Origin: Chiloscyllium plagiosum
Lineage: Eukaryota
Direction: 5' to 3'
Assembly: GCF_004010195.1 (NCBI RefSeq)
Contig: NC_057752.1
Coordinates: 3,958,379-4,008,637, forward strand
DNA: 50,259 nucleotides
Positions 15,133 through 41,132 of the stretch are shown here, one piece after another. The position numbers were made by a program, and so were the translations under genes. The notes beneath the pieces were generated by a model. The model did no database searches. It saw only the letters and a list, made by a program, of their open reading frames with translations, and was not told the DNA's origin. Each line of letters begins with the position of its first letter. Within the stretch, counting starts at the first letter, position 1.

Positions 15133-15867
15133 CTTGTGTTTTCAAATAAACCTTTTTCACTATAACCTAGTGTTGTGTGATTTTTGACTTTGTCCACCCC
15201 AGTCCAACATCGGCTCCTCCACATCATTTGAACATGGATTGCTTCAGTATCTGAGGATTGGCTGGGTTGGATTTGTCCTGCTTTTTATGTACAGGACATA
15301 CCTGGGCAATTTCCTACATTGTTGGATAAATGCCAGTGTTGTAACTGATAATGCATTGGTTAGAGTCATAGTCATACAGATGTACAGCATGGAAACAGAC
15401 CCTTCAGGCCAGCACTTTACTGAATATTCTTAATTGCTCTTGAGAAGTGGTAATGAATTGCCTTCTTGAATTCAACTGAGGGACGTTAAGAATGGGCCTG
15501 GAGTCACATGTAGGCTGGACCATCTAAAGATAGCAGATTACCTTCCATAACGGGCACGAGTGAAGCAGCGTTTTTTTTACAGCAATCTATTTCTTTCATT
15601 GTCATAAGTACTGAGATTGGTATTTTTAACTCTAGATTTATTTAACCAGTTAAACTTGAATTTCCCCGCTGCTGTGGGATTTATTTGAACTTAAGTCACC
15701 AGTGCACCAGCTTATGGCATCATTCAGCTGATCACTGTGCTCTCGCTACCCTGTAACCAGTTCATCACCGTGTCGCAGTGTTAACTTTCATAGACACGCG
15801 TTATAGAGCCACACTGTGGTGAAACAGATTTACTGCAGCTATTGCAAAGCAATAAAAGACTGGCACA

Positions 15868-15948
15868 CAGCGCCGCTGGTGGCCAATAATCGCTACTTCA
15901 ACAAGCTGCATTTGTTTCAGAACTGGTTACACGGCCACCTTGTGGCGA
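15868..15948 (-). promoter_or_regulatory. Pair of CTCF-like motifs
   Basis: Minus strand reads CGCCACAAGGTGGCC (about 15933-15947) and TGGCCACCAGCGGCGCTG (about 15868-15885, one base short of consensus), in unique CpG-retaining sequence. Confidence 0.35.
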
Positions 15949-16080
15949 ACTGTACGTCATGAATGTAATGCACAGTATTTGTAAAGATCTGGGAACGTAT
16001 TAGAACTCGATGTGGACTTGTAAAGTGTCTCTTCATATGCCATGATTGGCAATCGATCTGTAGTTGCTTATTCCTCAACA

Positions 16081-16945
16081 ATTTTCGAAAGTCAAATCAA
16101 GGTAGGAGTTTAATGGTGAATAATTGGTCCTTAAGGAGTGTAGTGGAACAGAGTTCAGGTGCATTGTTCCCTGAAAGTGGAGCCACAGGTAGACAGGGCA
16201 GCAAAGAAGGCTTTTGGCACACTGGCCTTCATCAGTCAGAGTATGGAAGGTGGGAAATTATGTTGCAGTTATACAGCACATTGGTGAGGCTGCACTTGGA
16301 GTATTATATTAGATTAGATTACATTACATAACAGTGTGGAAACAGGCCCTTTGGCCCAACAAGTCCACATCGACCCACCACCCACCCCGACATTTACCCC
16401 TTACCTAACTTGTGTTCAGTTTTCGTCACCTTGCTATGGGAAGGATGTAATTAAACTGGAAAGAGTGCAGAAGAAATTTACAAGGATGTTGCCAGCACTT
16501 AATGGTCTGAGTTACAGGGAGAGGTTGGACAAGCTAGGACTTTTTTCCATTAGAGCGTAGGAGATTGAGGGGGGACCCTATAGAAGTGTATAAGATCATG
16601 AGAGGGATGGATAGGGTGAATGCACTGTCTTTTTCCCAGGTTGGGGAAACAAGGACTAGAGGGCATCAGTTTAAGGTTAGCAGGGAAAGAACAAAAGGGA
16701 ATCGGAGGGGCAACCTTTTTACACAGAAGGTTTTACGCTTATAGAATGAGCTGCCAGCGGAAGTGGTTGAGGCGGGTACATGAACAACATTTAAAAGGCA
16801 TTTGGACAAATACATGGATAGGAAAGGAATGGAAGGATATGGGCCAAGTGCAGGGAAATTGAGTTAGCGTGGATGGACATTTTGGTCAGAATGGACCAGT
16901 TTGGCCCAAAGGATCTATCTCCGTGCTATAGGACTCTATAACTCT
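16081..16945 (+). mobile_element. 5'-truncated CR1 with an antisense HE1 tail inserted at about 16308-16410
   Basis: LYSTLVRLHLEY...LERVQKKFTRMLP; ends GACTCTATAACTCTA. Confidence 0.88.
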
Positions 16946-17609
16946 AATTGCATTTATATAACACTTTTAACATGCCATAGGCACCTCATAGGATTAATAT
17001 CAAATCAAATTCAAAACTGAGCCAGATAAAGAGAATTTTCGATAGGTGACCAAAAGATTTGTCAAAGAGATAGTTTTTAATATGTCTTTTGGAAGAGGAG
17101 AGGGAGGTGATGAAGTCAAGAGATTTAGCAAGGAAATCCAGAGCTTGGAACCAAGTTAACTGAAGGCACTGCTGCAAATAGAAAGGGATTTTCTTTTCCA
17201 TTTAATTCAGACATGGATGTAGGGAGGGAGCATTTAAAAAATTTATTCATTCATAGAATGCAGCCATCATTGACAAAGCGTACATGTATTTTCCACTGTC
17301 AAGGTGAACTGCCTTCTCGAATACATCAGACAGATTTGTCCTGCCATTTCAGAGGACAGCTAAAATTCAACCACATTGCTGTGAGTCTGGAGTCACATGC
17401 AGACTAGACAGGATCAGGATAGCAGATTTCCTTCCCTTAAGGACATTAGTGAGTCAGATGGGTTTATACAACAATCTGGTAGTTTCATAGTCACCATTCT
17501 TGATACTAATTTTTTTTATTCTCGATTTATTTATTTGCTTCAATGTATATTCCCCAGCTGCCAAGAGGGAATTTAAACGCATGTGTCTGGACCAGTCAAT
17601 GATAAGAAT

Positions 17610-19540
17610 GAAGCATTTGCAAGGCCCTTCAGCCAGAGTGGATGATCTATCTCGGATTTCTCTAGAGGTCCCCACCATCATAGATGCCAGTTCTCAGCCA
17701 ATTCGATTCACTGCATGTGTCATCAAGAAACGGTTGGAGGCAATGGATATTACAATGGCTATGGGTCCTGACAACATTCTGGTAATAGTACTGAAGAATT
17801 GTCCTTTAGAACTTGCCACTCCTCTAGCCAAGCTATTCCAGTACAGTTACAAGACTGTGGAAAGTTGCCCAAGTATGTCCTGTACATAAAAGCAAGACAA
17901 ATCCAACCCGGCTGCATCAGTTTACTTTTGATCATCAGTAAAATGATGGAAGGTGCCACCCACAGTGCTATCAAGCAGCACCTGCTCAGCAATAACCTGC
18001 TCAGTGACGCCCAGTTTGGGTTCCACCTGGGTCACTCAGCTCCTGACCTCATTACAGCCTTGGTTCAAACATGGACAAAAGAGCTGAATTCCAGAGGGGA
18101 GGGGAGAGGGACAGCCCTTGACATCAAGGCTGCATTCAACTGAGTGTGATATCAAGGAGCCCGAGCAAAACTGGAATCAATGGGTATCGGGGGCAAGCTC
18201 GCCGCTGGTCGGAGTCATACCTGACACATAGGAAGATGTTGTGGTTGTTGGAGGTCAGTCATCTCAGCTCCAAGACATGTCTGCAGGAGTTCCTCAGGAT
18301 AATGTCCTTGGCCTAACCGTTCTCATCTGCATCAAAGATCCTCCCTTTATCATAAGGTCAGAAGTGGGGATGTTCACTGATGACTTCACAACATTCCAAT
18401 ACCATTCACCACTCCGCAGACATCAAGACTATCTGGGTGGCACAGTGGCTCAGTGGTTAGCATAAATGCCTCACAGTGTCAGGGATCTGCGATTGATTCC
18501 AGCCTTGGACAACTGGCTGTGTAGAGTGTGCACATTCTCCCATGTCTTTGTGGGTCTCCTCTGGGTGCTCCAGTTTCCTCCCACAGTTCAAAGATGTGCA
18601 ACTTAGGTGGATTGACATTGGGAAATGCAGGATTGCACAGATAGGGTGTGCCTGGGTGGCATGTTCTTCAGAGTATTGATGTAGACTTGATGGGTCAAAT
18701 GGTCTCTTTCTGCATTGCAGGGATTCTATTATTCTGTATCCAAAAGCAACAAGATTTGGACAATATCCTGGTTTGGGCTGACAATTGGCAAGTAACATTC
18801 ATACTACACAAGTGGCACACAATTACCATTGTGAACAAGAGACAGTCTAATCATTGCTCCTTGACGTTCAATGACATCCCTATTACTGAATCCCCCACTA
18901 CCAAAATCCTGTTGGTTACCACTGACCAGAAACTAAACTGGACTAGCCAAATAATACATTGGCTACAAGAGCAGGTGAAAGGCTAGGAATAATGCAGCGA
19001 GTAACTCACCTCCTGACTCCCCAAAGCCTGTTCATTATCTATGAAGCACAAGTCAGGAGTGTGATGGAATACTCTCCATTTTCCTGAATGATTGCAGCTC
19101 CAATAACACTCAAGAAGCTTGACACCATCCAAGCCCACTTGATTGGCACCACATCCACTCCCACTACCACCAACACTCATTAGCATCAGTGTGTCTATCT
19201 ACAAGATTCACTGCAGAAATTCACCAAAGATCCTTAGACAGCACATTCTAAACCCACAACCACTTCCATCTAGAAGGACAAGGGCAACAGAAACATGGCA
19301 ACACCATCACCTTCAAGTTCCCCTCCAAACCACTCACCATCCTGACTTGGAAATATATCACTGTGCCTTCACTGTCACTGGGTGAATATCCTGGGAATTC
19401 CCTCCCTAACAGCATGTTGGGTGTATCTACAGCATATAGGCCACTGTGGTTCAAGAAGGCAGCTCACCACCTTCTCAAGAGCGCTAGGGATGGGCAATAA
19501 TTGCTGGCCCAACCAGTGACAATCACATCCCATGAATGAA
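17610..19540 (+). mobile_element. Decayed CR1-group LINE family B (RT to 3' tail) with an HE1 SINE inserted at about 18435-18735
   Basis: RT motifs AMGPDNI, QFGF, ALDIKAAF, GVPQDNVLG and MFTDD; tail ending ATGAATGAAT. Confidence 0.88.
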
Positions 19541-19689
19541 TCATAAACATATTCTATTTGCCTGGATTCCTAGACAAGTAAGTTGAGCACTATGTTGTCA
19601 AACCCCACTAGGAGTCTGTGGAGGAGCTTGAAAACAAGATGAGAATAATAAACTTCAGGTATTGTTGGACTGGGAATGGATGCCAATTA

Positions 19690-21612
19690 GTGTGCACAGT
19701 GAATGATGTGTGGATACAAAATTGACTGAGTGATAGGAAATAGAGAGCAGATCAATCTGTACTTTTCCAGCTAGAGCAAGGTTTGTAGTGGAGATCCCCG
19801 GGGGTTGGTATGGGGACCCTTGCTTTTCCTGATTAATATTAATGATCTGGACCTTGGTGTGCAGGGGACAGTTTGCAGAAGACGTGAAATGTGGAAGAAT
19901 TGTAAACCACAAGGAGGACAGTGTGGAGCTCCAAAAGGACATTGACAATTTGGTGGAGTAGGTGGAGAGGCTGCAGATGAGGTTCAATGTACTACGATAG
20001 TAAAGATCTTGTGAAACTTGAGAGGGTATAAAGATTTACAAAGATGTTGCTGTGGTAGCAGGGTTTGAGCTATGGGGAGAGGCTAAATAGACTGAGGCTG
20101 TATTCCCTGGAGTGTCGGAGGCTGAGGGGTATAGAGATTTATAAAATCATGAGGGGCATGGATAGGATGAATAGCAGGGGAGTCTAGAACTGGAGGGCAT
20201 AGGTTTAAGGTGAGAGGGGAAAGATTTAAAAGGAACCTAAGGGGAAATATTTTCATACAGAGGGTGGTGCGTGTATGGGATGAGCTGCCAGAGGAAGTGA
20301 TGGAGGCTGATACAATTACAACACTTAAAAGGCATCTGGATGGGTATATGAATAGGAAGGGCTTAGGGGGATAGCTGGCAGGTGGGACTAGATCAGTTTA
20401 GTCACGGTGGCTCAGTGGTTAGCACTGCTGCCTCACAGCGCTGGGGACCCAGGTTCAATCCCAGCTTCGGGCAACTGTCTGTGTGGAGTATGTACATTCT
20501 TCTGTGTCTGCGTGGGTTTCCTTTGGCTGCTCCAGTTTCTTCCTACAGTCCAAAGGTGTGCAGGTCAGATGGATTGGCCGTGTTAAATTGCCCATAATGT
20601 TCAGGGATGTGTAGGTTAGGTACCTTAGTCAGGGGTAATAGGGTAGGGGAATGGGTCTGCGTGGGTTACTCTTCAGAGGGTTGGTGTGGACTTGTTGGGC
20701 TGAATGGCCTGTTTCCACACTGTAAGGATTCTATTATTCTATGATATCAGGTTGGCACAGGTGAGTTGGACTGAAGGATCTGTTTCCATGCTGTATGATT
20801 CTGTGTCTCTCTAAGTATGAGGTAATGCAGTTTGGTAGGAAGAACATTGAAAGGCAATGCAAAAGACAGAATACAATTTGAACTGGGTGCAGGAGCAGAG
20901 GGGGCTGGGTGTATCTGTGCACAGATCATCGAAGGTGGCAGAACAGGTGGCGAGAGCAGTTAATAAAACACACAGTGTCCTCAGCTTTATTAATAGGGAC
21001 ATAGAGAACAAGAGCAGGGAGGTGATGTTGAACTTGTACAAGACCCTTGTTAGACCTCAGCTGGAGGGTTGTGTCCAGTTGTGGGCCCCACACTATAGGA
21101 AAGATGTGAACACATTGGAGAGAGAGGGCAGGAGGGATTTACCAGAATGGTTCCAGGGATGAGAAACTTCAGTGAGGAGGAGAGATTGGAGACATTGGGA
21201 CTGTTCTCCTTGGGGAGAAGGAGGCTGAGAGGGAGATCTGAGAGAGGGTTCCAACATCATGGGGGGAGGGGGCTGGACAGAGTAGATCAGGAGAAGCTGT
21301 TCCCACATGGAAAAAGAACAGGAATGAGGGGGACAGAGATTGAAGGGGATGAAGTGAGGGAGAGGTGAGGAAAACCTTTCTCCCCCAGCGAGTAGTTAGG
21401 GTCTGGAATGTACTGCCTGGGAATGTGGGGGAGGCAGATTCCATTGAGGTATTTGATGGATTGAATGATTTTTTGGGAGAAAAATGGTGTGGAAAGGCAT
21501 GGGGACAAGACAGAAAATCAGCTCTAGGTAGTGATACTTGTTTAACAAGCTGGTGCAGATCCAATGGGTCGAATGGCCTCCTTCTGCACCGTAACAATTC
21601 TGTGATTCTGTG
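19690..21612 (+). mobile_element. Three-layer nest: older CR1 containing a younger CR1 (about 20000-20810) containing an HE1 SINE (about 20402-20740)
   Basis: Outer RT text breaks after ...CAGATGAGGTTCAATG (about 19990) and resumes at AAGTATGAGGTAATGCAG (about 20813). LYKTLVRPQLE lies downstream. Confidence 0.8.
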
Positions 21613-21859
21613 AATAAGACTTGATGAATTAGTACATAGGCTGCAAAGTTTTGGATGAGTTCAGGCTTACGGAGGTTGGAAGGCAGCTGGCTGACCAGAC
21701 CCCATTTTCTAGGCACAAGAAAGTCCAATGACAGAGGCCATGCATCACCTGAGTATAGGGGAGCTGACACTCCTCCAGCACTACTGACAGCCCATATTCT
21801 GATTGGTGAAAGATGGAAAAGTCGGGAAAAGCCAAGAGTAACTGAGGGAGGAGGTGGCA

Positions 21860-22082
21860 GAAAGAGAGAGAGAGAGCGCAATACAGAGTTAGAGTTGTCG
21901 ACACACAGATCTGGAAGAGAGATGGAAAGAGGGAGGGAATAAAAGAGAGAAAGAGGGAAGGAAAGAGAGGGAAGGATGAAGAGAGAAAGAGAGGGGGCGA
22001 AATGGAGAGGCATAGAGGAGGAGAGGCAGAGAGAAGAGGAAGAGGGATGGAGAGGAGAGGAAGAGAGATGGAGAGGAGGAGA
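21860..22082. repeat. Polypurine (GA-rich) low-complexity tract
   Basis: Mostly A/G on the + strand, especially from about 21915 on. Confidence 0.9.
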
Positions 22083-22233
22083 TCCCAAGTAAGGTTTGAG
22101 CCCACAAGCTTCATGGTAAGAGTGTAACCACTGAAACAAGCTGGCACTCAGACAACATTGTAATATTAATGCTTAACAAATAAGTTATTGATAAATGCTA
22201 CAACTTTAGTGTTGCAGAGAAAGAAGACACATT

Positions 22234-22269
22234 TTGTCAAAGCTTTTCATCTTGTACTTGTCAGGACAA
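22234..22269 (-). ncRNA. CpG-decayed hammerhead motif of a third family
   Basis: ttgtc-CTGACAA-gtacaagat-GAAA-agct-TT-gacaa; perfect 5-bp stem I and a palindromic AAGCTT. Confidence 0.5.
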
Positions 22270-22278
22270 TTTGCAATT

Positions 22279-22605
22279 GGGGCAGCACGGTGGCTCAGTG
22301 GTTACCACGGCTGCCTCACAGCACCAGGGACCTGGGTTTGATTCCAGCCTCGGGACCGTTTGGAGTTTGCACATTCTCCTGGTGTCTGTGTGGGTTTCCT
22401 CCCACAGTCCAAAGTCGTGCATGTTAGATAAATTGGCCGTGCTGAATTGCCCATTGTGTTCAGGGATGTGTAGGCTAGGTGTATTAGTTAGGGGGAAATG
22501 TAGAGTCTAGGGTAGGGGAATAGGCCTGGGTGGGATACTCTTTGGAGGGTCGGTGTGGATTTTGTTGGGCCGAATAGCCTGTTTCCATATTGTAGGGACT
22601 CTGTG
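22279..22605 (+). mobile_element. HE1-type SINE, apparently inserted into a third Penelope-like family fragment
   Basis: GGCAGCACGGTGGCTCAGTGG head through the GGGCCGAATAGCCTGTTTCC tail. Confidence 0.85.
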
Positions 22606-22874
22606 AATACCAATTCAAGGGGAAACCAACATTAATATTGCATGAGAACAGATGGGTTAGCAAGCATTTGTAAGTTCAGCCCCTCCCCAGCTAGCTAGGT
22701 TAAAGTTACCATTGGATGTCTGTTACACGTCTGCCATAGTAATGTCAACCAAGTGGCAGAGGGTCTGAGGGACATTTGGGAACAATGTATACATAGTTTC
22801 CAAAGCCTATCTCATGGTCATGTACTGAATAAGCAGGGGAACAGGATTATTAATTCACACAGCCATCCTCTGCT

Positions 22875-23081
22875 ATGTTTTGGAGATGCCGGTGTTGGAC
22901 TGGGGTGGACAAAGTTAAAAATCCCACAACACCAGGTTATAGTCCAACAGGTTTAATTGGAAACACTAGCTTTTGGAGTGTTGGTCATTAGGTGATTGTG
23001 GATGAAGGAGCTGCGCTCCGAAAGCTAGAGTGCTTCCAATTAAATCTGTTGGACTATAACCAGGTGTTGTGTGATTTTTAA
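22875..23081 (-). mobile_element. Penelope-like fold-back element (family 1)
   Basis: Inverted arms ACAACACCAGGTTATAGTCCAACAG / CTGTTGGACTATAACCAGGTGTTGT; imperfect flanking repeat CCATC(CT)CTGCTATG / CCATCTGCTATG. Confidence 0.8.
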
Positions 23082-24337
23082 CCATCTGCTATGATCACCT
23101 TATAAACCCTGTTTCTCTGCTCCATGCAATGAATCGCCTGTCAGCTGAACAAAACAGATTGCACCGCAGGTGATCTTCACATCCAGGTCATTGCCACAGC
23201 AACTTCCCCAGAACTGCACTTCTCATTAGCTTAGCAGGAGTTAACAGGTCAGAGTGCTAAAAGACTGTTAAAAAGAGCATGTAAAAATAACAATCTTGCA
23301 TTTCTAAAGCACCTTTTACAACAACCAAATGCCTCAAAGCACTTTACATGCAATATTTGAAGTGTAGTCGCTGTTGGAGGAGGGAAAACAACAGCCAATT
23401 TGCACACAGCAAGCTCCCACCAAAAGCAATGTGATAATGACCAGATGATCTTATCAAGGACAACTAGGGATGGGCAATAAATGCTGGCCAGCCAGCAATA
23501 CCCCCATCCCACAAATGAATAATAAAAAAGCCTGAATTACTACCCCAGTAACATTGCCCCAAGGCTACCAGCCTCTTACGAGGAATGATGACAGAAATTG
23601 GATGATGTGGTTTGGAAAGAAGATAATTAAGAGGGTTCCTTGATACATACATGAATGTTATGGATAAAGTTAACTTGGAGCATTGCTTCAGCATGAGTTA
23701 TGGCAGTCAATATTTCAGACCTAAAAGTCATCCTCAGTTCATTCAAACCATAAGCATGACTGAAGAAAGTTGGTCAAATGGTAAGACCATTTTTATTGTA
23801 CAGTGAATCCTGAGTACATACACAGTACAAGGTAAAAGGAAAGCTCTTTCCCAAGCTCTTAGAGAATCCCAATACTTGTCCTTCTTTAAGTATCAGTGTA
23901 AAAGGTAGATTACAGAAAAATCAATGCAGCAATGTGCTAGGCTACTGAATAGCACAAGGAGCATTTTATACTTGCAGTGACATCCCCCTGTACAAATGCC
24001 ATCTTACCTATTTCAATCATACCCAAAGAAAAGCAAGCAGGGTTTGAGTAGACTCTAGTTGCTGTCCCATATACGAGGTTTAAAAACCAAATCCAAATGG
24101 GCAAGTCATGCCAGCTAAGTCATGCAAGTAGGCCTCCTTGCAACAGATTTCAAGAAGAGCAGAGGGTCTTTCAGAAGGCCTCTTACCTGCTGTCACAGAA
24201 AGGTTACAGAACTCACCAGTTGGAGATCCAACATACAAGGCAGTAAAAATGGAAGCAAAACACAAGCCTGACAATAAAAGCTACCAATAAAGGTACAATG
24301 CAATCTTTCCAGTGATTTTTCAAAAGGTTTGACTTAC

Positions 24338-24515
24338 TTGGATCTACATAGGCCCAGCTGGGGTGCATAGGTGCCGATGGCGATGGACTGTTATTCTTAG
24401 CCCCCAAGGTTGCCTCCTCATAAGTGGGAGGAGCAGTTGATGCTGACATGGGTTCTCTTTTCTCAGGCCCTCGCTGTTCGCCTTCTGGATTTGAGGTTTT
24501 ACTTGTGGAAAAAAG
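24338..24515 (-). CDS. FAIM2: FAIM2 coding exon 2 (LFSTSKTSNPEGEQRGPEKREPMSASTAPPTYEEATLGAKNNSPSPSAPMHPSWAYVDP)
   Basis: TTTGTTTCTTTGCAG acceptor and GTAAGT donor; 178 nt, phase 0 to 1. APPxYEEAT and HPSWAYVDP match the FAIM2 N-terminus. Confidence 0.93.
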
Positions 24516-25660
24516 CTGCAAAGAAACAAAGATAATATACATTGATCTGGTGGATCTTAGTGACACAAATTGAAAAAAAAATGCCTCCACTTCTTCTTAT
24601 TTGGGAGTTTTTGATTCATTTTTTCCCATATTTATGGGGATATCAGTGATTTGGATAGAGTTTACAAAAGGATGGATTGTGCCAATTGGACTCTCTTCGA
24701 TGTAACAAAAGCATTAGGCCTCCAACAGAATAGGTCAGAGTTTGAAAATCAGAACTGGTTTACCCTCTACACAAATATATCAGCTGCTGGTTGTTGCAAA
24801 ATGTCCTTACCTTTTTACTTCTCAGCTAAAGTTACCATTGTATATCAAGCTCAAATTATTTTGAATTTGAGCTTCCAAAAGCCAAGAGCCACACAGGGAT
24901 CCTGAAACTGTAGTCTTACCTTTCCTTCTGAGTTACATACAGAAAAAGTATTAGTGAAGAGGATTAGACCACATGATGCTGATAATTCCCATCACTAGAG
25001 ATTACTAACACACTAATACTAATACTCAAGCACTGTTTCTGTCAGCTTCCTTCTCAGGAGATCATTGCATTGGGGAAATGCAATTAATTGAAAGGTATTG
25101 AGATAGATTCTGAATGATTTTAAAGTCCAGCTATTGGTCTTACATGATTCAGAGATTTAACTTCTTCCCCACATTGAACTCAATGGGGAAATAAATACCA
25201 GTAACATACATCTTCAAATAATGCTGATCCTGTTAACGCTGATCTTGCCTCACGTAAATCCTGTGCAGTGTAACCTGTATACCTTATTCTGTCCAAGTTT
25301 TTTTTCACTGTATGATCTGTATGTGCTTGATTACTATGATCTGCTTGTACTGCTCACAAACGCAGCTTTACACTGTACAGTGTACTTAGATACACGTGAC
25401 AATAAATCAAATCAAATCTACCAATTATCATTCAGGGGATGTGGCTTGGCCAGCATCCCTTATTGGAGAAAGTGGTAGTGAGCTGCTTTCTTGAACCACC
25501 TCAGTCCTTTGTATAGGACACCCACAGTGATGTTTGAAAGAGAGTAGCAGGATTTTGACCCAGCAACACTGAAGAAGGAAATGTTTAGTTTAAAAACAAA
25601 CTGTAAAAAGCAAAGTGATGACAGATTGAAGCATCTATCTTTATCCTCAACTATCAGAAC

Positions 25661-25697
25661 AATTCCTGAAGAAGGGCTCATGCCTGAAACGTCGATT
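25661..25697 (+). ncRNA. Minimal hammerhead motif in a family-2 Penelope-like terminus
   Basis: aattc-CTGAAGA-a-gggc-tcat-gcct-GAAA-cg-TC-gatt. Confidence 0.6.
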
Positions 25698-25914
25698 CTC
25701 CTTCTACTTTGATGCTGCCTGACCTGCTGCGCTTTTCCAGCAACACATTTTCAGCTTGTATCAGAACAATGAACTGACTGTGTTCAGCACATATCAGGGA
25801 GTGCAACTCACTGTCATATAACTGAGAAATCACAGCAAGGCAACCAATTAAAATGGCACCATTTATCTCATGCTGATGGTATAAACCTGCACAAAAAGTT
25901 GCCGGCAAACTCTC

Positions 25915-26130
25915 CCCAGTGTCCTGGCCAGTATTTATCCTTCAACTAAAATCACTAAGGCAGACGATCTGCTCATGATCACATTGTGGTTTGTGGGATC
26001 TTGCTGTGTAAACATTGGCTGCTGTGTTTCCCATGCAACAGTAGTGACTGCACTTTAGGATGTTTTAGGATTTAAGTATTTTAGGATGTTTGAGGTACGA
26101 AAGGTGCATTGGACATGCAAGCTCTTTCTT
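25915..26130 (+). mobile_element. Deu-domain SINE (SacSINE1/AmnSINE1-like)
   Basis: GTGTCCTGGCCAGTATTTATCC...CACATTGTGGTTTGTGGGATCTTGCTGTG...TTGGCTGC matches the recalled Deu domain. Related copies at about 23290-23450 (-), 27620-27960 (-), 31745-31880 (-), 37310-37470 (+) and 45200-45400 (-). Confidence 0.65.
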
Positions 26131-27470: not shown

Positions 27471-27505
27471 CACTAGCTTTCGGAGCGCTGCTCCTTCATC
27501 AGGTG
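27471..27505 (-). ncRNA. Minimal type-I hammerhead ribozyme motif, on the same strand as FAIM2 exons 1-2 (intron 1)
   Basis: Minus strand reads cac-CTGATGA-a-ggagc-agc-gctcc-GAAA-gc-TA-gtg. Confidence 0.7.
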
Positions 27506-27525
27506 GTTGTCATCAGGTGGTTGAC

Positions 27526-30500: not shown

Positions 30501-30833
30501 AAACTGAGTTTCTAACACTGGTTTAACAATTGATTTCCAAGGATTTCAAAATAAAGCTGGACGGAGGAGTGGGAGTCCTATTTTCCACGAAGATGCCCTA
30601 TTTTAGCACCAATATTCACACTAATATCTATTTCCTATGAAACTGAAGAATGAAGTTCAGAAAAGAAAGCCTGAGGTTCTCAGGCACGTATTGTTTAAGT
30701 GTATAAAATTAGACAATAAAATGCTTGGGGAGATCCATGACTAGATTGGTCGCACCATAGCAACGCTCTTGGAAATACAACGAATCTGTCATACTATAAT
30801 TGAAAAGGAACTGAACGATATAGATGTACTTAC

Positions 30834-30848
30834 TTTTCCTTGTGTCAT
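30834..30848 (-). CDS. FAIM2: FAIM2 (Lifeguard 2, TMBIM2) coding exon 1, MTQGK
   Basis: ATG ACA CAA GGA AAA followed by a GTAAGT donor. It matches the recalled FAIM2 start MTQGK with a phase-0 intron, and lies upstream of exon 2 on the same strand. Confidence 0.88.
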
Positions 30849-31375
30849 TCTGAGGAGCTCACTTGCACTGCGGATGACAGACAGTGTCGAACACCTGTGC
30901 TCCTGCTCGTTAATTTCCAGTGAAACTGACCCAGCCGCCTGTTATGACTGCAGTAAATCTGGGATAATACAGTTTCTAGCAATATCCACGGGCATGCACA
31001 CAGGCAGGCTGGAAGATACCAAGCGAGTGTAGCAGCCAGGGGAGGCTCGCATCAGATTACACATCAGGATCTCGGGCACAGCCCTGAACAATTGGCGAGT
31101 ACCGCTGCGGTGGGCATCTCCGCAGTGCCCGGAAAGTGGCCAAGGTGCCTTTCTCCTTTTCACCTGGACATCGCAGCGAATGGTGCTGGCGTTTGCTCTA
31201 ATGGTTGAGTCCTGTCATTCAAGTTGGGTTGGTGGAGGGGGCAGTGGGATTGGGGTGTTGTAGTGTTGCGTTTCACAAAAAGGACCTTGTGTTTTGAGAG
31301 CAATGGAAGGAAGACTAGCATTTCTCTAGCGCCGTTCACGACCTCAGTGACTGTCGCAGACTGCTTTGCAGCCAA
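30849..31375 (-). promoter_or_regulatory. Probable FAIM2 5'UTR/promoter
   Basis: Unique, GC- and CpG-enriched sequence directly upstream of the FAIM2 ATG, in an otherwise CpG-depleted background. Confidence 0.5.
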
Positions 31376-31379
31376 TGAA

Positions 31380-31741
31380 GAGAGGTTTATAAAATCATGA
31401 GGGGCATGGATAGGATAAACAGAGAAAGTCTTTTCCCCGGTGTGGGGGAGTCCAGAACTAGAGGGCATAGGTTAAGGGTGAGAGGGGAAAGATATAAAAG
31501 GGACTTAAGGGGCAACCTTTTCTCACAGAGGGTGGTACGTGTATGGAATGAGCTGCCAGAGGAAGTGGTGGAGGCTGGTACAATTTAAAAGGCATCTGGA
31601 TGGGTATATGAATAGGAAGGGTTTAGAGGGATATGGGCCAAGTGCTGGCAAATGGGACTCGATTGGGTTGGGATATCTTGTCAGCATGGACAAGTTGGAC
31701 CGAAGGATCTGTTTCCATGCTGTACACCTCTATGACTCTAA
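31380..31741 (+). mobile_element. CR1 family-A 3' end
   Basis: MRGMDRINRESLFP...FSQRVVRVWNELPEEVVEAG; tail CTCTATGACTCTA. Confidence 0.9.
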
Positions 31742-31887
31742 GTACTTTTGAAGTGTAGACTCAGTGTCAGCAAGTTCTCATACAGTAAGATCCCACAGAT
31801 TGCAACATGAAAAGGACCAGATAAACCATTTTGAGTGATGTTGATTGAGGGATAAATACTGGTCTGGTCTCCAGGGTGAATCCCAGA

Positions 31888-32330
31888 ACAGAAACAGAAA
31901 TTGTCGGAGAAACAGGTCGAGCAGCATCTGTGGAGAGAATGCAGAGTTAACGTTTCAAGTCCAGTGACCCTTCTTCAGAACTGATGGTAGCTAGGATAAA
32001 AGGTTGACCATGTGCGGAAGATGGGATGGGGGTGATTGTGAGTGATGGAGCCCAGAGAAAGAGAGAACCACAATTAGGCAAAGGCTTGAAGAACAGCATC
32101 TCATTTTCCACTTGGGGACCCCCACAGCCATTAGGACTTAGTATGGAGTTCGATAATTTTAGAGCCTGAATACTTTCCTCTATGTCCTTTACCTATTCCC
32201 CTACACCTCAGGCCTTGTCATGACATGAGCTGCTTTCAGCATAGCTCACCCATTGTCATCTACTCATTGTCCCATTATCAGCTTTTCTTTCTCCATTATC
32301 CATCCCTGTTTAACTGTCATTCTGTCTTTC
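31888..32330. mobile_element. Penelope-like element with inverted structure (minus-strand 3' terminus joined to plus-strand ORF end)
   Basis: Plus strand from about 32086 encodes LEEQHLIFHLGT; the minus-strand terminus carries a hammerhead. Confidence 0.65.
31945..31982 (-). ncRNA. Minimal hammerhead motif in a Penelope-like terminus
   Basis: agtt-CTGAAGA-a-gggtc-actg-gactt-GAAA-cg-TT-aact; stem I agtt/aact. Confidence 0.6.
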
Positions 32331-34750
32331 AGAGTGACAGCCCTTGACATCAAGCTCGCATTCGACTGCGTGTGACATCAAGGAGCCCTAGAGTCATAGA
32401 GATGTACAGCAGGGCAACAGAGCCTTCAGTCCAACTCATCCATGCTGACTAGATAACCGACATGAATTAATTCTAAAACCCTTCCAATTGATATTCCCAT
32501 CCAGATGCCTTTTAAATGTTGTCATTGTACCAGCCTCCACCGCTTCCTCTGGCACCTCTTTCAACACACACACCACCCTCTGCGTGAAAACTTTCCCCTT
32601 AGGTCCCTTTTAAATCTTTCCCCTTTCTCCCTAAACCTATGCCCTCTAGTTTTGGACTCCCCTACCCTGGGAAAAAGACCTTGTCTATTCACCTCATGAT
32701 TTTATAAACCTCTATAAAGTCACCCCTCAGCCTCCGATGCTCCAGGGAAAACAGCCCCAGCCTATTCAACTTCTCCCTGTAGCTCAAACCCTCTAACCCT
32801 GGCAACATCCTTGTAAATCGTTTCTGAACCCTTTCAAGTTTAACAACATCTTTCCCATAGCAGGGAGACTAGAATTGAATGCAGTTGTCCAAAAGTGGAA
32901 AGTCAAATCAAGATAGGAGTTTCATGGTGCATGGTAGGGCCTTCAGGAGTGTTGTGGAACAGAGGAATCTTGGAGTTCAGGTGCACGGTTCTCTGAAAGT
33001 GGAGTCACAGGTAGGCAGGGCAGTGAAGAAGGCTTTTGGCACACTGGCCTTCATCAGTCAGGGCATTGAGTATAGAGGTTGGGAAGTTATGTTGCGCTTA
33101 TACAGGACATTGGTGAGGCCTCACTTGGAGTATTGTATTCAGTTTTGGTCACCTTGTTATAGGACGGATGTTATTAAAGTCGAGAGAGTGCAGAAGGAAT
33201 TTACAAGGATTTTGCCTTGACTCAATGATCTGAGTTATAGGGAGAGGTTGGACAAGCTAGGATGTAGGAGACTGAGGGGAGGGAACCTTATAGAGGTGTA
33301 TAAGATCATGAGAAGCATGGATAGGGTGAATGCACTCAGTCTTTTTCCCAGTGTTGGGGAAGTGAGGACTAGAGGGCATCAGTTGAAGGTTAGAGGGGAA
33401 AGAATAAAAGGGAACCCAAGGGGCAACATTTTAAATATAGGGTGGTACACATATGGAATGAGCGGTCAGGGGAAGTAGTTGAGATGGGTACATTAATAGC
33501 ATTTAAAAGGTATTTGGACAAATACGTGGATAGGAAAGGATTAAAAGGATTAGAAAGGATTATGGACCAAGTGCAGGGAAATGGGTATTTTGGTCAGCAT
33601 AGACCAGTTTGGACCAAAGGGCCTGTCTCCATGCTGTAGGACTCTATGACTCTAAGTGGCCTAATCAATGTCCTATATAGGTGCAACATGACCTCCCAAC
33701 TCCAATACTCAATGCTCTATCCAATCCAGCATACTAAGCGTCTTCTTCACCACCCTGTCTACCTGCGAGTCCATTGCATTCCAAGGTCTCTTTGTTCGGC
33801 AACATTCTCCAGGACCCTACCATTAAGTGTATACACCCTGCTCTGATTTGCTTTTCCAAAATGCAACACCTCACATTTATTTAATCTGCCACTCCTTGAT
33901 CCATTGGCCCATCTGATCAAGATCCCATTGTACTCTGAGATAACCTTCTTTGCTGTTCACTACACCTCCAATTTTGATGTCATCTACAAACTTACTTACT
34001 CTAGCCCTTGCAAAACTGGAGTCAATGGATATCCAGGGGAAAACTCTCCTGGCAAAAAGACGGATGGTTATTTGGTGGTCATTCATCTCAACTCCAGGAC
34101 ATCTCTGCAGGAGTTCTTCAGGGGTGTGTCCTAGGCTCAACCATCTTCAGCTACTTCATCAGTTACTTCATCAATGACCTCCCTTCCTTCATAAAATCAA
34201 AAGTAGGAATGTTTGCCAATGATTGCAAAATGTTCAGCACCATTTGCAGCTCCTCAGATACTGAAACAGTCCATGTCTAACTGCAGTAGGACCTCAACAA
34301 TATCCAGGTTCCAACTAATAAGTGGCAAATAACATTCACACCTCACAATGACCATCTCCAATACGAAACAATCTTGATCTTCAGTGGTGTTACCATCACT
34401 GAATTCCCCCATTTATTAACATCCTTATTGACCAGAAACTCAAATGGGCTAGCCACATAAACACAGTGGCTACAAGAGCAGGCCAGAGGGTAGGAATACT
34501 GTGGCAAGTAACTCACCTCCTGACTCCCCAAAGCCTGTCCACCATCTACAAGGCATAAATCATGAGTGTTTTGGAATACTCCCCACTTGCCTGATGAGTG
34601 CAACTCCAACAACACTTGAGAAGCTTGACACCATCCAGGACAAAGTAGCTCACTTGATTTGCACTCCATCACAAACATCCACTCCTTCCACCACTGATGC
34701 ACAGTAGCAGTGTGTACTATCTGTAAGATCTACTGCAGAAATTCACCATC
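32331..34750. mobile_element. Three-layer LINE nest: family B (+) containing CR1 (-, about 32390-34003) containing CR1 (+, 32899-33653)
   Basis: Inner TSD AAGTGG at 32893-32898 and 33654-33659. The outer host reads CAAGGAGCCCT|...|AGCCCTTGCAAAACTGG, colinear with 18154-18175. Confidence 0.85.
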
Positions 34751-35917
34751 CTCTCCCTCCTTCATCCACCCTCCTCGCCAACCTACACCATCACCCCACC
34801 ACCTCCATTTACCTATCGCATTCCCAGCTACCTTCCCCCCAGCCATTTATCTCTCAGGCCCCTTGGGTCAACCCCTCATTCCTGATTAAGAGCTCATGCT
34901 TGAAACATCGACTCTCCTGCTCCTCAGTCGCTGACTGACCAACTGATAAGAATAGCAAAGATTCTTATTGCGCAAATGCCATTAGAAACCAGAATAAGAC
35001 AGTACTCAGAAAGACAGAGAAATAAAACATCTTTACTGATAAATCTTTAATGAAGGATGTTTTTAAGCCTAAAATAAGATGGGACAAATGAAGGGAGTAT
35101 AAAAATATTGACAAGATAAAAGCTCACAAATTCATTAACAGCCTGTTAATTTCTGTTAATAAAGTTGTAACATCAGTAAATTGTCTCATTTAAGTTTATT
35201 TTCTGTTACAATTGTAACAAACTTTAATGTTTTATTTACTTCCTTAAGTTGGAAATGTATTTTCTGAAGAGAGAAATCTCAGAGCCATAAAATAGCTTAG
35301 ACATTTATAGCAGAGCTAAGGATTATTAAACGTAAGCAGGCTATTTAGAACATGGCAACATTCACAAGTAGTTTCTTATCCAGGGAAAGTTAATCTTACA
35401 GTCCCAAAACTTTAAGTATTTATGAAATTGACTAGTTTGAACTCAATAGACAGAAATTACCAGGAATATACTCCTGATTTAAGTTTGCTCTTAAAAAAAA
35501 GGAGGTAGAAGCGAGAAATCACTTTGGGGTAAGGGGTACCTGGGGATTAGCTGGATCAGGTTGGAGGTTGGTCAGGTGGTGTTTGAGACAGGACTTGGGT
35601 TCAGTCAGTGATTGGGTGGGGGGTTGTCCATTGTGTATTACCAAGAAGTTAGACTTGGTCTAACCTGTCTAACATTTCCTTGGTATCTATCCAGGTAACT
35701 ACTTTGGAACTGCAGGAGGTTTCTGACTCCAGCTTTAACTGCGATGGAAGTTTGAACCTGGTGGACAATTCCCATGTGGATTAGCATATTGGGACCTATA
35801 AAGGATCCCAAAATACATTTTGGGTTGTATATCTGGTCTGCAAATTCCAGAAACCGAAACACCCGGACCATAATTTTAACAGCAGTGTTAAACCATGTAT
35901 TTCAAACTGATTAATAC

Positions 35918-36607
35918 TGTTACGAAGACGTGGGTGTACTGTACCTTTAAGAGAGTTAAAAGCTAGCAGAACTACCTGACACAGCACCAAGTGTTCTGAA
36001 TAAGGTAACAATGTGACACTTGGTCAAAAGCTAGATTAGCTGGTTGCCTGGAAATGACAAAACAGATTCGAATTAGGCCAATCGGTTTAAATTATATTCT
36101 GAAAAATATCAAATTACAATCAAGTTTGAATTTAGTCTATTGACAATCTTAAAAGCCAATGACACAATCCGATTTTTGGGGGGTATAAGACCGGGAAACA
36201 TTGAACAGTTGGGAGGAGAACTGCCAAGCCAATGATAACTGTAGGCTTCCCAGAGAATAGCTCTCTTAAAGCTACCTTTATTGATCAGTAACCTGTGAAG
36301 CAGAGATCCCTAAGGGGAAGAAAAGAAGAGTCGACGTCCGGCTGGTTTTTGAAAAGTTGAATTTTGGTAAATCTTAATTGAGTGGTTTTATTGGACTAGT
36401 AGAAGGGGAAGGAAAAAGATAGGTTAGAGGAAGGAGTTGTGAATAGTTTTAGTTAATTATTCTCTGTTATACTTTAAGAAATGAAGTTATTACTTTTACT
36501 TTAACTAGTTCTCGGCCTCTCGAAATTTCACAGGTTACTGCATGGGATAAATCTTTTCTGTGTTGCTGGTTTAAATTAAGCAGGAGGGTTTACCCCGTGT
36601 CGTAACA
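35918..36607 (+). mobile_element. Solo LTR (690 bp), probably Gypsy-type
   Basis: Perfect 8-bp inverted termini TGTTACGA...TCGTAACA; perfect 4-bp TSD ATAC (35914-35917, 36608-36611); internal GGGTATAAG. Confidence 0.88.
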
Positions 36608-39094
36608 ATACTTCACTGCAATAGTGTAGGAGGGTGAAATTAACAAGGTTGCCAATCCTCCCAGATTGTCTGGGAGTTTCCCAGTACCTCTTGACATGCT
36701 GCTGCTGCCAAAGACAAACAGCAACAGGGGACCCAGCTGTTATATGGAAGCGCAAATAAAATTTGCAAATTATGGGCCAGTATTTCCTAAACAAATATCC
36801 AGTGATCAAACCTCCAGGAATATGTCCAACCAGAGTTGGCAAACAATTAATTGCAAGATATTAGTGTTGCACACTGCAATTTGACCCATTTGTTTTCTAC
36901 TTCTTTATACCAAGAAATGTGAAGGTTTAGTGAAAGGTCTTTCTTCATATTAGACATTCAGGTCTTTGACATCTACAACTGAGAAGGATAACAGCAACAA
37001 AGTAATTGAAAATCTACTAGTCCAAATCACACACTATCAGTGTGGCTGTCCCACAGGGTGAGTTGCAATGCTCCTTGTTTGAATAACTTTACAGGTGGGA
37101 CAGTAGGAAGCTTGCAGCAGTCATCTAACTGTGAATAGGAGGAGTTGTCATCATGAGGACAACATATGAGAAAGGGGAGAAAATAATGCAAGATATAAAT
37201 ATTAGTTCAGTGTGAGTGAATTAGGTGTTGGGTGTGGTTTAGTAATAAATACTGTCAGTCTGGCTCAGACAGTAGTAGATTTATATCCCCTCCCAAAGAC
37301 TTAAGAACATTATCCAGACTGATTGGTCATTATCACATTGCTGTTTATGGAACATTGCTATGTGCAAATGGACTTAAAACTTTCCTACATAACAACAGTA
37401 GCTAACTACAAAAGTACATAACTGACTGAAGCCCTCTGAGATGTCATCAAAAATGCAATAAAATGCAGGTTTTAAAAAAAATAATGTTCTTTTCTCATCA
37501 GCTTCTTAGAACTCCAATCCATTGACTCCCACAAAATATTTGCATGGAGATTGGAATTCAAACGATCTCAGCGTCAGTAAATTGGATTCACAGAAATAAA
37601 ACTGAAATGTTGATTAACTTGTTATACAATCCCAAAGACAGTGATGGTTTTCCCTGTAATTAATCCCTCTTAGCGTTATCTTTTATAATGTATGTAACAA
37701 CATTAGTTTGAAACAATAGCAAGGTTAAACCTGGCCTCCATCTGCTGTCTCACCATGTGAGCAAAATGATTGTACCTCTGATGGCACTTCTGATCTGTCT
37801 ATGCTGTTTCACTCTGTGTTCATCACAATTTCTGCGTTCATTAAAATTTCTGTACTCACCTAGAGACTGGAACACTCAATTGTGGGGAGATGGTGGTGTA
37901 GTGGTAATGCTATCCTTACCCGAACTGGCCTACATGTGACTCTAAATTCAAAGCAAAGTAGTTGACTCCTAACCATTCTCTGAAATGCCAATCAGTTCAA
38001 GGGAAATTAGGGATGGGCAGCAAATACTCACCTTACCAGCAATGCCCATATCTTATCAAAAAATATCTTTAATAACCAGGTTGCAGTCTCCCTCCGCAAA
38101 GCATGTGTAAAGTCGTCAAGAGAATACAGACTGGACATGATGTACAAGAGGCTCCTCAAAACATTGCATGGCTGTAACTTTGGAAATCCTGACCAAAGTG
38201 TGGAGTGAATGATGACGTTTTGTCCGACCCAAGTTTGAAGGAGACTTCCTAGAGATGCACTTGTTCTTCAGTGGGACATTGGATTGGTGAGGGAAATGTG
38301 ATGCCAGCTTCTGCTCCAAAAGCCAGATGAAAGAAAAAGAAGAAGATCCAAGAATTTAAAAGAAAATTAATCATAGCAAAATACCCCAAGATGCTTAATA
38401 AAGGGGGAGGCGAAAGAGAATACAATTGTGGAAGAAAAAAGCAAGGGAAGGCATGGAAGGTTCACTCCCAAGGAAACCAATAGAGAGTGGAAAAGAAGGA
38501 GCTTGTTTTTTGGAAGAGGACTCCAAAATGCTGGGGAATGATGACTGAAGGAGGGAATATACAGCAGATTAGAATCAAAGAGTAGAGTTTGTTGCGTGGG
38601 ATACAGGCTTCAATGCTAAGTGATCCAGCAGGCACCTGAAACTGATAGGGACCATGCACATAATGCATTCATTGATAAATTAAATAGGTTATTCAGGAGA
38701 CATTTCTTTACTGAGAGGGTAATTAAAAAGTGGAACTTGCTGCCACAAGGAGTGCCTCAAGTGCTAGCTTAAATGCATTTAAAGGAAAACTAGATAAGTT
38801 AGCACAGGAGGTAGGAGTAGAGGAATATGTTGTTTCAATGACGTAGGCTAGGAGAAGGTTCACATGGAGCACACCAGTATGGGCCAACGAAAAAGTGGCT
38901 GCTTTGTATTGTAGGCTAGTGGGAGCTGGACAATGGATGCACAAACTGAGTTCACATTTCAGTTGACAATGGGAGCTATTACAGATGATCATTAATCCAA
39001 GTAACTATCTCATCCCAAATAAAAGCAAAATACCACTGATACTGGAAATCTGAAAGAAACTCAGAAAATGCTGGAAGAAACTCAATAGGGCTTT

Positions 39095-39505
39095 CCAACC
39101 CACTTGTCTCCACATTCAAAGGATCATCTTTCACCATTTTTGCCACTCCCAAACACATCTTCCCCTCCCCTCCCCTCCATTGTCAGTAATCTGCAGGGAT
39201 CATTCTCTTCATGACTCCCTAGTCCATAACTCCATCAATCCTAATGCTTCCTCACTCCCCATGGCATCTTCCCACACTAGTGTAACACTTGCCCATTCAC
39301 CTTCTCCTGCCTCACTGCCCAAGGCCCCAAACACATCTTCCGGGTGAAGCAGTGTTTCATTTGTACTTCTTTCAAGCTAGTCTACTGCATTCACTGCTCG
39401 CAAAACAGTCTTCTTTAACAAATGCAGACTGGGTAACTGTTTTGTGGAACACTTCCGCTCTGTCCATAGGCGTGGCCCTGACTCCCAATTATTTGCTATT
39501 TCAAT
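39095..39505 (+). mobile_element. Penelope-like GIY-YIG endonuclease region, decayed
   Basis: From 39281 translates to CNTCPF...GPKHIFRVKQCFICTSFKLVYCIHCS, then RLGNCFVEHFRSV; the YIG segment is deleted. Confidence 0.75.
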
Positions 39506-39516
39506 AAACCACCTTG

Positions 39517-41132
39517 GAGTCATACGAGTCATAGAGGTGTACAGCATGGAAACAGACCCTTTGGTCCAACCTGTCCATGCCGACCAGATATCCCAATCCA
39601 ATCTAGTCCCACCTGCCAGCACCCTCCCATATCCCTCCAAACTCTTCCTATTCATATACCCATCCAAATCCCTCTTAAATGTTGCAATTGTACCAGCCTC
39701 CACCACATCCTCTGGCAGCTCATTCCATACATGTGCCACCCTCTGCGTGAAAAAGTTTCCCCTCTCACCCTAAACCGATGCCCTCTAGTTCTGGACTCCC
39801 CGACCCCAGGGAAAAGACTTTGCCTATTTATCCTATCCATGCCCCTCATAATTTTGTAAACCTCTATAAGGTCACCCCTCAGCCTCTGACTCTCCAAGGA
39901 AAACAGCCCAGCCTGTTCAGCCTCTCCCTATAGCTCAAATCCTCCAACCCTGGCAGCATCCTTGTCAATCTTTTCAGAACCCTTTCAGGTTTCACAACAC
40001 CTTTCCGATAGGAAGGAGACCAGAATTGCACGCAAAGTTCCAACAGTGGCCTAACCAATGTCCTGTACAGCCGCAACATGACCACCCAACTCTTGTACTC
40101 AATACTCTGACCAATAAAGGAAAGCATACCAAACACCTTCATTATCCTATCCACCTGCGACTCCACTTTCAAGGAGTTAGGAACCTGCAATCCAAGATCT
40201 CTTAGTTCAGCAACACTTCCTAGGACCATACCATTAAGTGTATAAGTCCTGCTAAGATTTGCTTTCCCAAAATGCAGCACCTCGCATTTATCTGAATTAA
40301 ACTCCATCTGCCACTTCTCAGCCCATTGGCCCATCTGGTCCAGATCCTGTTGTAATCTGAGATAACCCTCTTCGCTGTCCACTACACCTCCAATTTTGGT
40401 GTCATCTGCAAAATTACTAACTATACTGCTTATGCTCGCATCCAAATCATTTATGTAAATGACAAAAAAGTAGAGGGCCCAGCACCAATCCTTGTGGCAT
40501 TCCACTGGTCACAGGCCTCCAGTCTGAAAAACAACCCTCCAACACCACCCTCTGTCTTCTACCTTTGAGCCAGNNNNNNNNNNNNNNNNNNNNNNNNNNN
40601 NNNNNNNNNNNNNNNNNNNNNNNNNNNNNNNNNNNNNNNNNNNNNNNNNNNNNNNNNNNNNNNNNNNNNNNNNNNNNNNNNNNNNNNNNNNNNNNNNNNN
40701 NNNNNNNNNNNNNNNNNNNNNNNNNNNNNNNNNNNNNNNNNNNNNNNNNNNNNNNNNNNNNNNNNNNNNNNNNNNNNNNNNNNNNNNNNNNNNNNNNNNN
40801 NNNNNNNNNNNNNNNNNNNNNNNNNNNNNNNNNNNNNNNNNNNNNNNNNNNNNNNNNNNNNNNNNNATCTTTGAGGGGCCCTATTCTCTCCCTAATTACC
40901 CTTTTGTCCTTAATATATTTATAAAAACCCTTTGGATTCTCCTAAACTCTATTTGCCAAAGCTATCTCATGTTCCCTGTTTGCCCTCCTGATTTCCCTCT
41001 TAAATATACTCCTACTTCCTTTATACTCTTCTAAGGATTAACTCGATCTATCCTGTCTATACCTGACATATGCTTCCTTCTTTTTCTTAACCAAACCCTC
41101 AATTTCTTATCCAATCCAGCATTCCCTATACC
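39517..41132 (-). mobile_element. Relatively young CR1 family-A LINE (ORF2 RT region to tail), spanning a gap
   Basis: 208-aa ORF at 39879-40505 with IYINDLD, FADDTK, LQQDLD and LYRTLVRP. Confidence 0.93.
40574..40866. other. Assembly gap (293 N) inside a CR1 element
   Basis: Counted N run; minus-strand CR1 sequence on both sides. Confidence 0.99.

What the first reader, a model, noticed from the sequence alone, without database searches (positions are those of the whole stretch)
15133..41132. FAIM2 is split across strands: exons 1-2 are inverted relative to exons 5-9 inside an exactly 26,000-bp block
Seen: exons 1-2 (30834-30848, 24338-24515) are on the minus strand and exons 5-9 (43204-50008) on the plus strand. 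All have canonical splice sites and open frames. The block holding exons 1-2 is exactly 26,000 bp and is bounded by two exactly 500-N gaps, while the other gaps are irregular (619, 293). Established: Hi-C scaffolders insert fixed-size gaps and cut at bin boundaries. Inference: the block is mis-oriented, and flipping it restores exon order. A real inversion allele or trans-splicing is much less likely, but would be remarkable.
Basis: partly seen in the sequence, partly recalled or inferred. Interest (0 to 1): 0.7.

Follow-up and report, generated by a model that had tools for sequence, protein, structure and literature searches.

The report
Assembly flip splits shark FAIM2 gene
The first two exons of a shark cell-survival gene (FAIM2) point backwards in a 26,000-base block, most likely because assembly software cut the sequence, flipped the block and set aside the piece with exons 3-4; rejoined, the pieces give an ordinary intact gene, so this is a curation fix, not new biology.

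Summary
Observation confirmed; the assembly-artefact reading holds at about 98%.

Exons 1-2 are on the minus strand in an exactly 26,000-bp block between two 500-N gaps; exons 5-12 are on the plus strand. Exons 3-4 lie on unplaced C98870 (exactly 26,000 bp); exon 4 is also on unplaced C89441 (exactly 8,000 bp).

- Right join: C98870 runs gap-free from exon 3 into window 41633-41721, so 41132 is not the neighbour of 41633.
- Left join: C98870's first base continues the repeat copy cut at 15133 base-exactly: 11 ungapped spanning copies, none at 14 shifts or in 300 random joins.
- Rejoined gene: 12 exons, canonical splice sites, 310 aa, 308/310 identical to a relative's model.
- Assembly-wide: 5 of 6 pieces between 500-N gaps nearby are exact multiples of 1,000.

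Public reads were uninformative. The scan saw the same artefact type elsewhere in this genome (e1-9957378). Side finding: a likely mutually exclusive exon 8a/8b pair.

The parts
14633..15132 (.). 500-N scaffolding gap (left join), likely artificial
   Evidence: Exactly 500 N, on the same 500-bp grid as 6 of 7 such gaps nearby; no repeat copy spans 14632 joined to 15133
15133..41132 (-). Exactly 26,000-bp block, likely mis-oriented; holds FAIM2 exons 1-2 and about 10 kb upstream
15133..15230 (-). Cut end inside a short interspersed repeat; read on the minus strand it continues at base 1 of unplaced C98870, which carries exons 3-4
   Evidence: 16 gapped spanning alignments; 11 ungapped at shift 0, 0 at 14 of 14 shifts, 0 of 300 random joins; 25 in the larger database. 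End coordinate approximate.
30834..30848 (-). FAIM2 coding exon 1 (15 nt, ATG, GT donor)
   Evidence: same N-terminal five residues as most listed shark and ray homologues
24338..24515 (-). FAIM2 exon 2 (178 nt, AG/GT), single copy in the genome search
   Evidence: (1 match of 9 candidates scored)
40574..40866 (.). 293-N gap inside the block, irregular size, likely an older (pre-Hi-C) scaffold gap
   Evidence: origin inferred
41133..41632 (.). 500-N scaffolding gap (right join); the sequence preceding 41633 is the end of unplaced C89441 = C98870:6902, not 41132
   Evidence: C98870:6903-6991 = window 41633-41721 (89/89); C89441:2755-8000 = C98870:1678-6902 (99.4%); last 150 bases of C89441 identical to C98870:6753-6902
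43204..43257 (+). FAIM2 exon 5 (54 nt)
43588..43638 (+). FAIM2 exon 6 (51 nt)
46319..46358 (+). FAIM2 exon 7 (40 nt)
47118..47155 (+). FAIM2 exon 8a (38 nt), one of a likely mutually exclusive pair
47245..47282 (+). FAIM2 exon 8b (38 nt), 89 bases after 8a; using both breaks the frame
   Evidence: (both together: 5 stops)
49921..50008 (+). FAIM2 exon 9 (88 nt); exons 10-12 lie just past the window end on the same strand

Best explanation
The split is most likely an assembly error: FAIM2 exons 3-4 lie on two unplaced round-sized pieces whose ends fit the window's cut ends, so the real gene is likely an ordinary colinear 12-exon gene. Shown: the block is gap-free from exon 1 to 15133; C98870:1-6992 is gap-free, carries exons 3 and 4 and runs into window 41633-41721; 41633 to exon 9 is gap-free; the joined exons give a 933-nt open frame. 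Inferred with strong support: 15133, read on the minus strand, is followed directly by C98870 base 1. Restored introns would be 10,551 (intron 2), 1,302 (intron 3) and 5,656 bases (intron 4). Inferred mechanism: two earlier scaffolds overlapped over about 5.3 kb of introns 3-4 (99.4% alike, probably the two haplotypes), one with a 17.9-kb N gap next to it. Such stretches give poor Hi-C signal, so a 3D-DNA-type misjoin editor cut both at 1-kb bin edges. It left out the 26,000- and 8,000-bp pieces as debris, then re-placed the short 26-kb remainder near its true site in the wrong orientation, with default 500-N spacers.
For: Exons 3-4 are on C98870 and exon 4 also on C89441; their lengths are exactly 26,000 and 8,000. 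C98870 crosses the C89441-end/41633 junction without a gap. Of 45 trial joins among 10 free ends, only 2 are spanned by repeat copies: 15133 with C98870 start, and C89441 end with 41633. Of 153 joins among 18 ends, 3 are spanned: those two and the two sides of an off-grid gap about 140 kb away. The first is base-exact: 11 ungapped spans, 0 at 14 shifts, 0 of 300 random joins. The rejoined frame is 310 aa with all splice sites canonical, 299/310 to P0001 and 308/310 to P0133. Round sizes are assembly-wide: 5 of 6 pieces nearby; in the length-sorted contig list at least 28 are exactly 26,000 and at least 124 exactly 8,000, against about 0.18 and 1.4 per base of length nearby. Passages read: 500 N is the default spacer of 3d-dna and SALSA2, and short pieces are often mis-oriented (PMC9292758); 4.3% local orientation error (PMC7672694); uneven coverage triggers removal as debris (PMC7368989).
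Against: No read or long read was seen across the 15133/C98870 junction. That junction rests on repeat continuity in an abundant repeat family, where another piece cut at the same offset could also fit. The natural neighbours of 41132 and 14632 were not found among the 18 ends tested, so the block's upstream side is not closed. C89441:1-1350 matches neither the block nor C98870 and is unexplained. The scaffolding program and its settings are inferred, and 1-kb bin cutting is recalled, not read.
Confidence: 0.98

Rival explanations
1. A real inversion allele: one haplotype carries the block inverted (a FAIM2 null allele) and the other is intact.
For: Two near-identical copies of the intron 3-4 stretch exist (99.4%), so two haplotypes are likely represented; the block's upstream neighbour was not found.
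Against: Both haplotype-like pieces lead into 41633 from exon 4, not from 41132. The breakpoints sit on the same 1-kb grid as four other pieces nearby and are padded with 500 N. Both cut ends are clean continuations of repeat copies. An inversion would not explain exons 3-4 moving to unplaced pieces of exact round size.
Confidence: 0.01
2. A fixed inversion, with FAIM2 mRNA made by trans-splicing of opposite-strand transcripts.
For: All exons keep open frames and canonical splice sites despite the opposite strands.
Against: That is equally expected of an intact gene. Gap-free DNA links exons 3-4 to exon 5 and, by a base-exact junction, to exon 2. Relatives have full-length models each listed on one contig, e.g. 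P0133 at 308/310.
Confidence: 0.003
3. Exons 1-2 belong to a second FAIM2 paralogue with its own minus-strand downstream exons.
For: Teleost faim2a/b duplicates exist (recalled); exon 4 occurs twice in the assembly.
Against: Exon 2 gives 1 match of 9 candidates scored. Of 27 genome matches to P0001, 11 are this locus or its two unplaced pieces and 16 are other family members at 31-68% identity. No credible minus-strand exon 5-12 in 250 kb. The two exon-4 copies are identical and sit in one 99.4% overlap.
Confidence: 0.005

Closest known systems
Hi-C scaffolding misorientation with misjoin-editor debris (3D-DNA or SALSA2 type)
   Same: Uniform 500-N spacers (PMC9292758, passages), a short piece placed locally but reversed (PMC7672694, passages), and neighbouring sequence removed as unplaced debris (PMC7368989, passages).
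   Different: Nothing of kind. Here the debris pieces could be re-joined at base resolution from the assembly alone, and the program used is inferred, not known.
FAIM2 / lifeguard 2 / TMBIM2 (Bax inhibitor-1 family, PF01027)
   Same: The rejoined protein is 310 aa, 308/310 identical to P0133 (Chiloscyllium punctatum faim2b isoform X2) and 299/310 to P0124 and P0001 (Stegostoma tigrinum). It has 12 coding exons, as in human FAIM2 (human exon layout recalled).
   Different: It has a second 38-nt exon 8; forms of this kind are already listed as RefSeq isoforms for sharks, a skate and gar.
Scan finding e1-9957378 (ICAM-like gene, 20,000-bp block, same genome)
   Same: Gene split across strands by a round-sized block between two 500-N gaps.
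   Different: Different gene and place; an unreviewed AI note that I did not test and do not count as support.
Opposite-strand trans-splicing as in Drosophila mod(mdg4) (recalled)
   Same: Exons of one protein appear on both strands.
   Different: There the arrangement lies in continuous finished sequence; here the strand change coincides with artificial gaps and disappears on rejoining.

Membership tests
Hi-C scaffolding misorientation artefact | Strand change coincides with fixed-size scaffolder gaps | tested here: met
   Both block ends are 500-N gaps; 500 N is a default spacer (PMC9292758 passage)
Hi-C scaffolding misorientation artefact | Pieces cut at bin edges give round sizes across the assembly | tested here: met
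   5 of 6 nearby pieces are multiples of 1,000; at least 28 contigs of exactly 26,000 and 124 of exactly 8,000
Hi-C scaffolding misorientation artefact | Cut ends rejoin other pieces, not their present neighbours | tested here: met
   15133 joins C98870:1 and 41633 joins the C89441 end; the present joins have 0 spanning copies. Partners of 14632 and 41132 not found.
Hi-C scaffolding misorientation artefact | Independent reads support the corrected junction and not the present one | tested here: inconclusive
   Short-read contigs break in the repeats at both cut ends
Hi-C scaffolding misorientation artefact | Inversion (bow-tie) signal in the Hi-C contact map | not testable with these tools
   No Hi-C map available
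FAIM2 / TMBIM2 orthologue | PF01027 domain and best matches named lifeguard 2 / FAIM2 | tested here: met
   PF01027 over cut-off at exon 12; best named homologues are lifeguard 2 / faim2b. No tree was built.
FAIM2 / TMBIM2 orthologue | Complete open frame over all coding exons | tested here: met
   933 nt, 0 internal stops with either exon 8
Real genomic inversion | Continuous sequence across the breakpoints in the inverted orientation | tested here: not met
   Both breakpoints are N spacers, and continuous sequence into 41633 comes from exon 4's intron instead
Opposite-strand trans-spliced gene | Exons on opposite strands of continuous DNA, joined only in RNA | tested here: not met
   The DNA pieces join colinearly; RNA itself was not informative

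The most novel reading that the evidence does not exclude
The sequenced shark is heterozygous for a real 26-kb inversion that turns FAIM2's promoter and exons 1-2 away from the rest of the gene (a natural null allele, or one rescued by trans-splicing), and the scaffolder cut at it for that reason.
Probability: 0.01. Interest if true: 0.55.

Novelty: not a real feature. Interest (0 to 1): 0.06.

Why it matters
As biology it does not: the gene is predicted to be a normal FAIM2. As curation, gene models built on this scaffold would lack exons 1-4, which could be misread as a truncated or lost gene. The fix is explicit: reverse 15133-41132, then insert C98870:1-6902 before 41633. The check used here (round-sized unplaced pieces plus repeat continuity across cut ends) can triage other split-gene findings in this assembly without reads.

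Tried and rejected
Reads. No RNA holder was listed for the block. Laying public short-read contigs on 10000-25000 (4 runs) was swamped by repeats. On 14450-15370 at 99% likeness (4 runs) no loose end before 15133 appeared among the 24 shown; 38 were not shown. One contig gave a 16-letter loose end behind 14632 that continues a GC-rich repeat and fits none of 15133, the flipped 41132 end or the C89441 start. It may come from another repeat copy, so I do not count it.

Genome DNA searches for a second haplotype across 15133, for the start of C89441 and for the tail of C98870 returned only the self match and repeats; only 40 candidates were scored each time.

The idea that the 57-kb piece ending at 14632 continues into C89441 base 1 found no support (0 spanning copies). 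A passing idea that this join forms a first exon was dropped because 14100-14632 is a high-copy repeat.

A first motif scan for exons 3-4 in the window found nothing.

Paper searches: FAIM2 with 'mutually exclusive exon' gave 0 papers; searches listed nothing on a FAIM2 inversion, split or exon-8 switch (search listings only). No other shark genome DNA is reachable with these tools, so synteny was not tested. No tree was built.

Full report
OBSERVATION. The window is G000:C43:3958379-4008637. Its gaps are 619, 500, 293 and 500 N, and the block between the two 500-N gaps (15133-41132) is exactly 26,000 bp. Exon 1 (30834-30848) and exon 2 (24338-24515) lie on the minus strand with canonical sites and one open frame. 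The exon-2 peptide finds 6 proteins among 18 candidates, all from sharks and rays, at 76-92% identity; 5 are named lifeguard 2 or faim2b and 1 is a hypothetical protein with a UniRef lifeguard-2 name. Exons 5-9 lie on the plus strand in the window and exons 10-12 just beyond it.

THE MISSING EXONS. tblastn of six homologues over 250 kb found no exon 3 or 4 (rows for two of the six queries were printed). A genome search with P0001 gave 27 matches: 8 at this locus on C43, 2 on C98870, 1 on C89441, and 16 on other family members at 31-68% identity (one search agrees). Exon 3 (104 nt) is C98870:1347-1450. Exon 4 (65 nt) is C98870:2753-2817 and, identical, C89441:3830-3894. C98870 is exactly 26,000 bp, of which 17,923 are N, and C89441 is exactly 8,000 bp. 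Exon 2 has 1 match among 9 candidates scored, and there is no second minus-strand set of downstream exons, so the paralogue rival fails.

THE RIGHT JOIN. C89441:2755-8000 matches C98870:1678-6902 at 99.4%, and C98870:6903-6991 matches window 41633-41721 at 89 of 89. C98870 has no N before 6993, so it crosses that point in one contig. The sequence before 41633 is therefore intron 4, ending where C89441 ends, and not window 41132.

THE LEFT END. Position 15133 falls inside a short interspersed repeat. I joined every pair of 10 free ends in a script and asked which joins are crossed by other repeat copies in 500,815 bases of fetched DNA. Only 2 of 45 were: 15133 (minus strand) with C98870 base 1 (16 alignments) and the C89441 end with 41633 (20). 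With 18 ends and a larger database, 3 of 153 were crossed: those two (25 and 36) and the two sides of an off-grid 500-N gap about 140 kb downstream (81). The first join is exact to the base: 11 ungapped spanning copies at zero shift, none at 14 of 14 shifts of 1-40 bases, and none in 300 of 300 random joins. The limit of this test is that the repeat is abundant, so another piece cut at the same offset would also fit. But C98870 was found independently as the carrier of exons 3-4, and its strand fits.

THE REJOINED GENE. The order is block reversed, C98870:1-6902, then 41633 onward. It gives 12 coding exons, every internal site AG/GT, 933 nt, 310 residues and no internal stop. Identity is 299/310 to P0001 and 308/310 to P0133, a Chiloscyllium punctatum model listed on a 36-Mb contig. 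Introns 2, 3 and 4 would be 10,551, 1,302 and 5,656 bases. Without exons 3-4 the frame breaks (9 stops), so flipping alone does not restore the gene.

ASSEMBLY-WIDE SIGNATURE. In 650,259 bases, 7 of 28 gaps are exactly 500 N, 6 of the 7 start on one 500-bp grid, and the pieces between them are 44,000, 163,000, 57,000, 26,000, 101,000 and 37,261. The unplaced contigs probed run in order of length. All 7 probed from C98868 to C98895 are 26,000, and all 8 probed from C89320 to C89443 are 8,000. That implies at least 28 and 124 such contigs, against about 0.18 and 1.4 per base of length just below. Passages read: 500 N is the default spacer of 3d-dna and SALSA2, and orientation is reliable only for long pieces (PMC9292758). 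3D-DNA had a 4.3% local orientation error rate, worse for short contigs, which hinders gene prediction (PMC7672694). Uneven Hi-C coverage makes 3D-DNA remove stretches as debris (PMC7368989). Cutting at 1-kb bins is recalled, and the program is inferred. I read passages only, no supplements.

MECHANISM (inferred). Two earlier scaffolds overlapped over about 5.3 kb at 99.4%, probably the two haplotypes, and one had a 17.9-kb N gap beside the overlap. Both dropped pieces cover that overlap, which fits loss of uniquely mapped Hi-C signal there. The editor cut both, left 26,000 and 8,000 bp unplaced, and re-inserted the short remainder reversed.

AGAINST AND OPEN. No read evidence was obtained: the short-read contigs break in the repeats at the cut ends. 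The partners of 41132 and 14632 are not among the 18 ends tested, and these two ends do not join each other, so more sequence is missing upstream of the gene or the 57-kb piece is also misplaced. C89441:1-1350 is unplaced by my tests. None of this favours a real inversion.

SIDE FINDING. Two 38-nt versions of exon 8 lie 89 bases apart; either gives a full frame and both together do not. In 4 of 4 within-species isoform pairs compared (zebra shark, cloudy catshark, thorny skate, gar) the only differences are 7-8 residues within positions 169-181. The switch is thus already in RefSeq models and is likely old. Among 121 listed homologues my motif rule gave 101 of 8a type, 3 of 8b type, 12 unclassified and 5 without the anchor motif. 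The list is cut and clustered at 90%, so it cannot show loss in tetrapods. One search for a paper on it gave 0.

VERDICT. An assembly artefact of a well-known kind over an ordinary FAIM2 gene. Confidence 0.98, interest 0.06. The scan noted the same pattern at another gene of this genome (e1-9957378); I did not test that note and it is not counted as evidence.

Noticed in passing
window 47118-47155 and 47245-47282 (+): Likely mutually exclusive FAIM2 exons 8a and 8b (38 nt each, 20 of 38 bases alike, 89-nt intron) swap about 12 residues in a hydrophobic stretch. Matching isoform pairs are listed for zebra shark, catshark, skate and gar; no paper found in one search.
   Followed up: partly
homologues P0002, P0004 and several teleost entries: Some shark and ray isoforms are 278 aa and lack the 32 residues of exon 10 (96 nt), an in-frame skip; many teleost proteins have similar lengths (275-282 aa), not checked.
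   Followed up: no
window 976-1173 (-) and G000:C43:3957720-3957980 (-): Two exons of a DUF1295 (PF06966) gene on the minus strand inside the 57,000-bp piece; its upstream exons were not located.
   Followed up: partly
L058:1-1350 (C89441): The first contig of C89441 matches neither the block nor C98870. Its last 83 bases match C43 about 58 kb upstream of the window exactly, inside a repeat. It may be an older mis-scaffolded contig.
   Followed up: partly
L059:4916-6000 (C98870:24916-26000): A 1,085-bp repeat-rich tail after the 17,923-N gap with no near-identical place on C43; by distance it could fall in the 3,237-N gap downstream of FAIM2 (inferred).
   Followed up: partly
G000:C43:4138772-4139271: A 500-N gap off the grid whose two sides lie in the same repeat family (81 spanning copies); perhaps not a bin-edge cut.
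   Followed up: no
G000:C49452 and C47446 (about 1.5 kb each): Small unplaced contigs carry exons of other Bax-inhibitor family genes, so other family members may also be fragmented in this assembly.
   Followed up: no
window 9617-9749: Perfect 39-bp tandem repeat, 3.4 copies, next to a (TC)n run.
   Followed up: no
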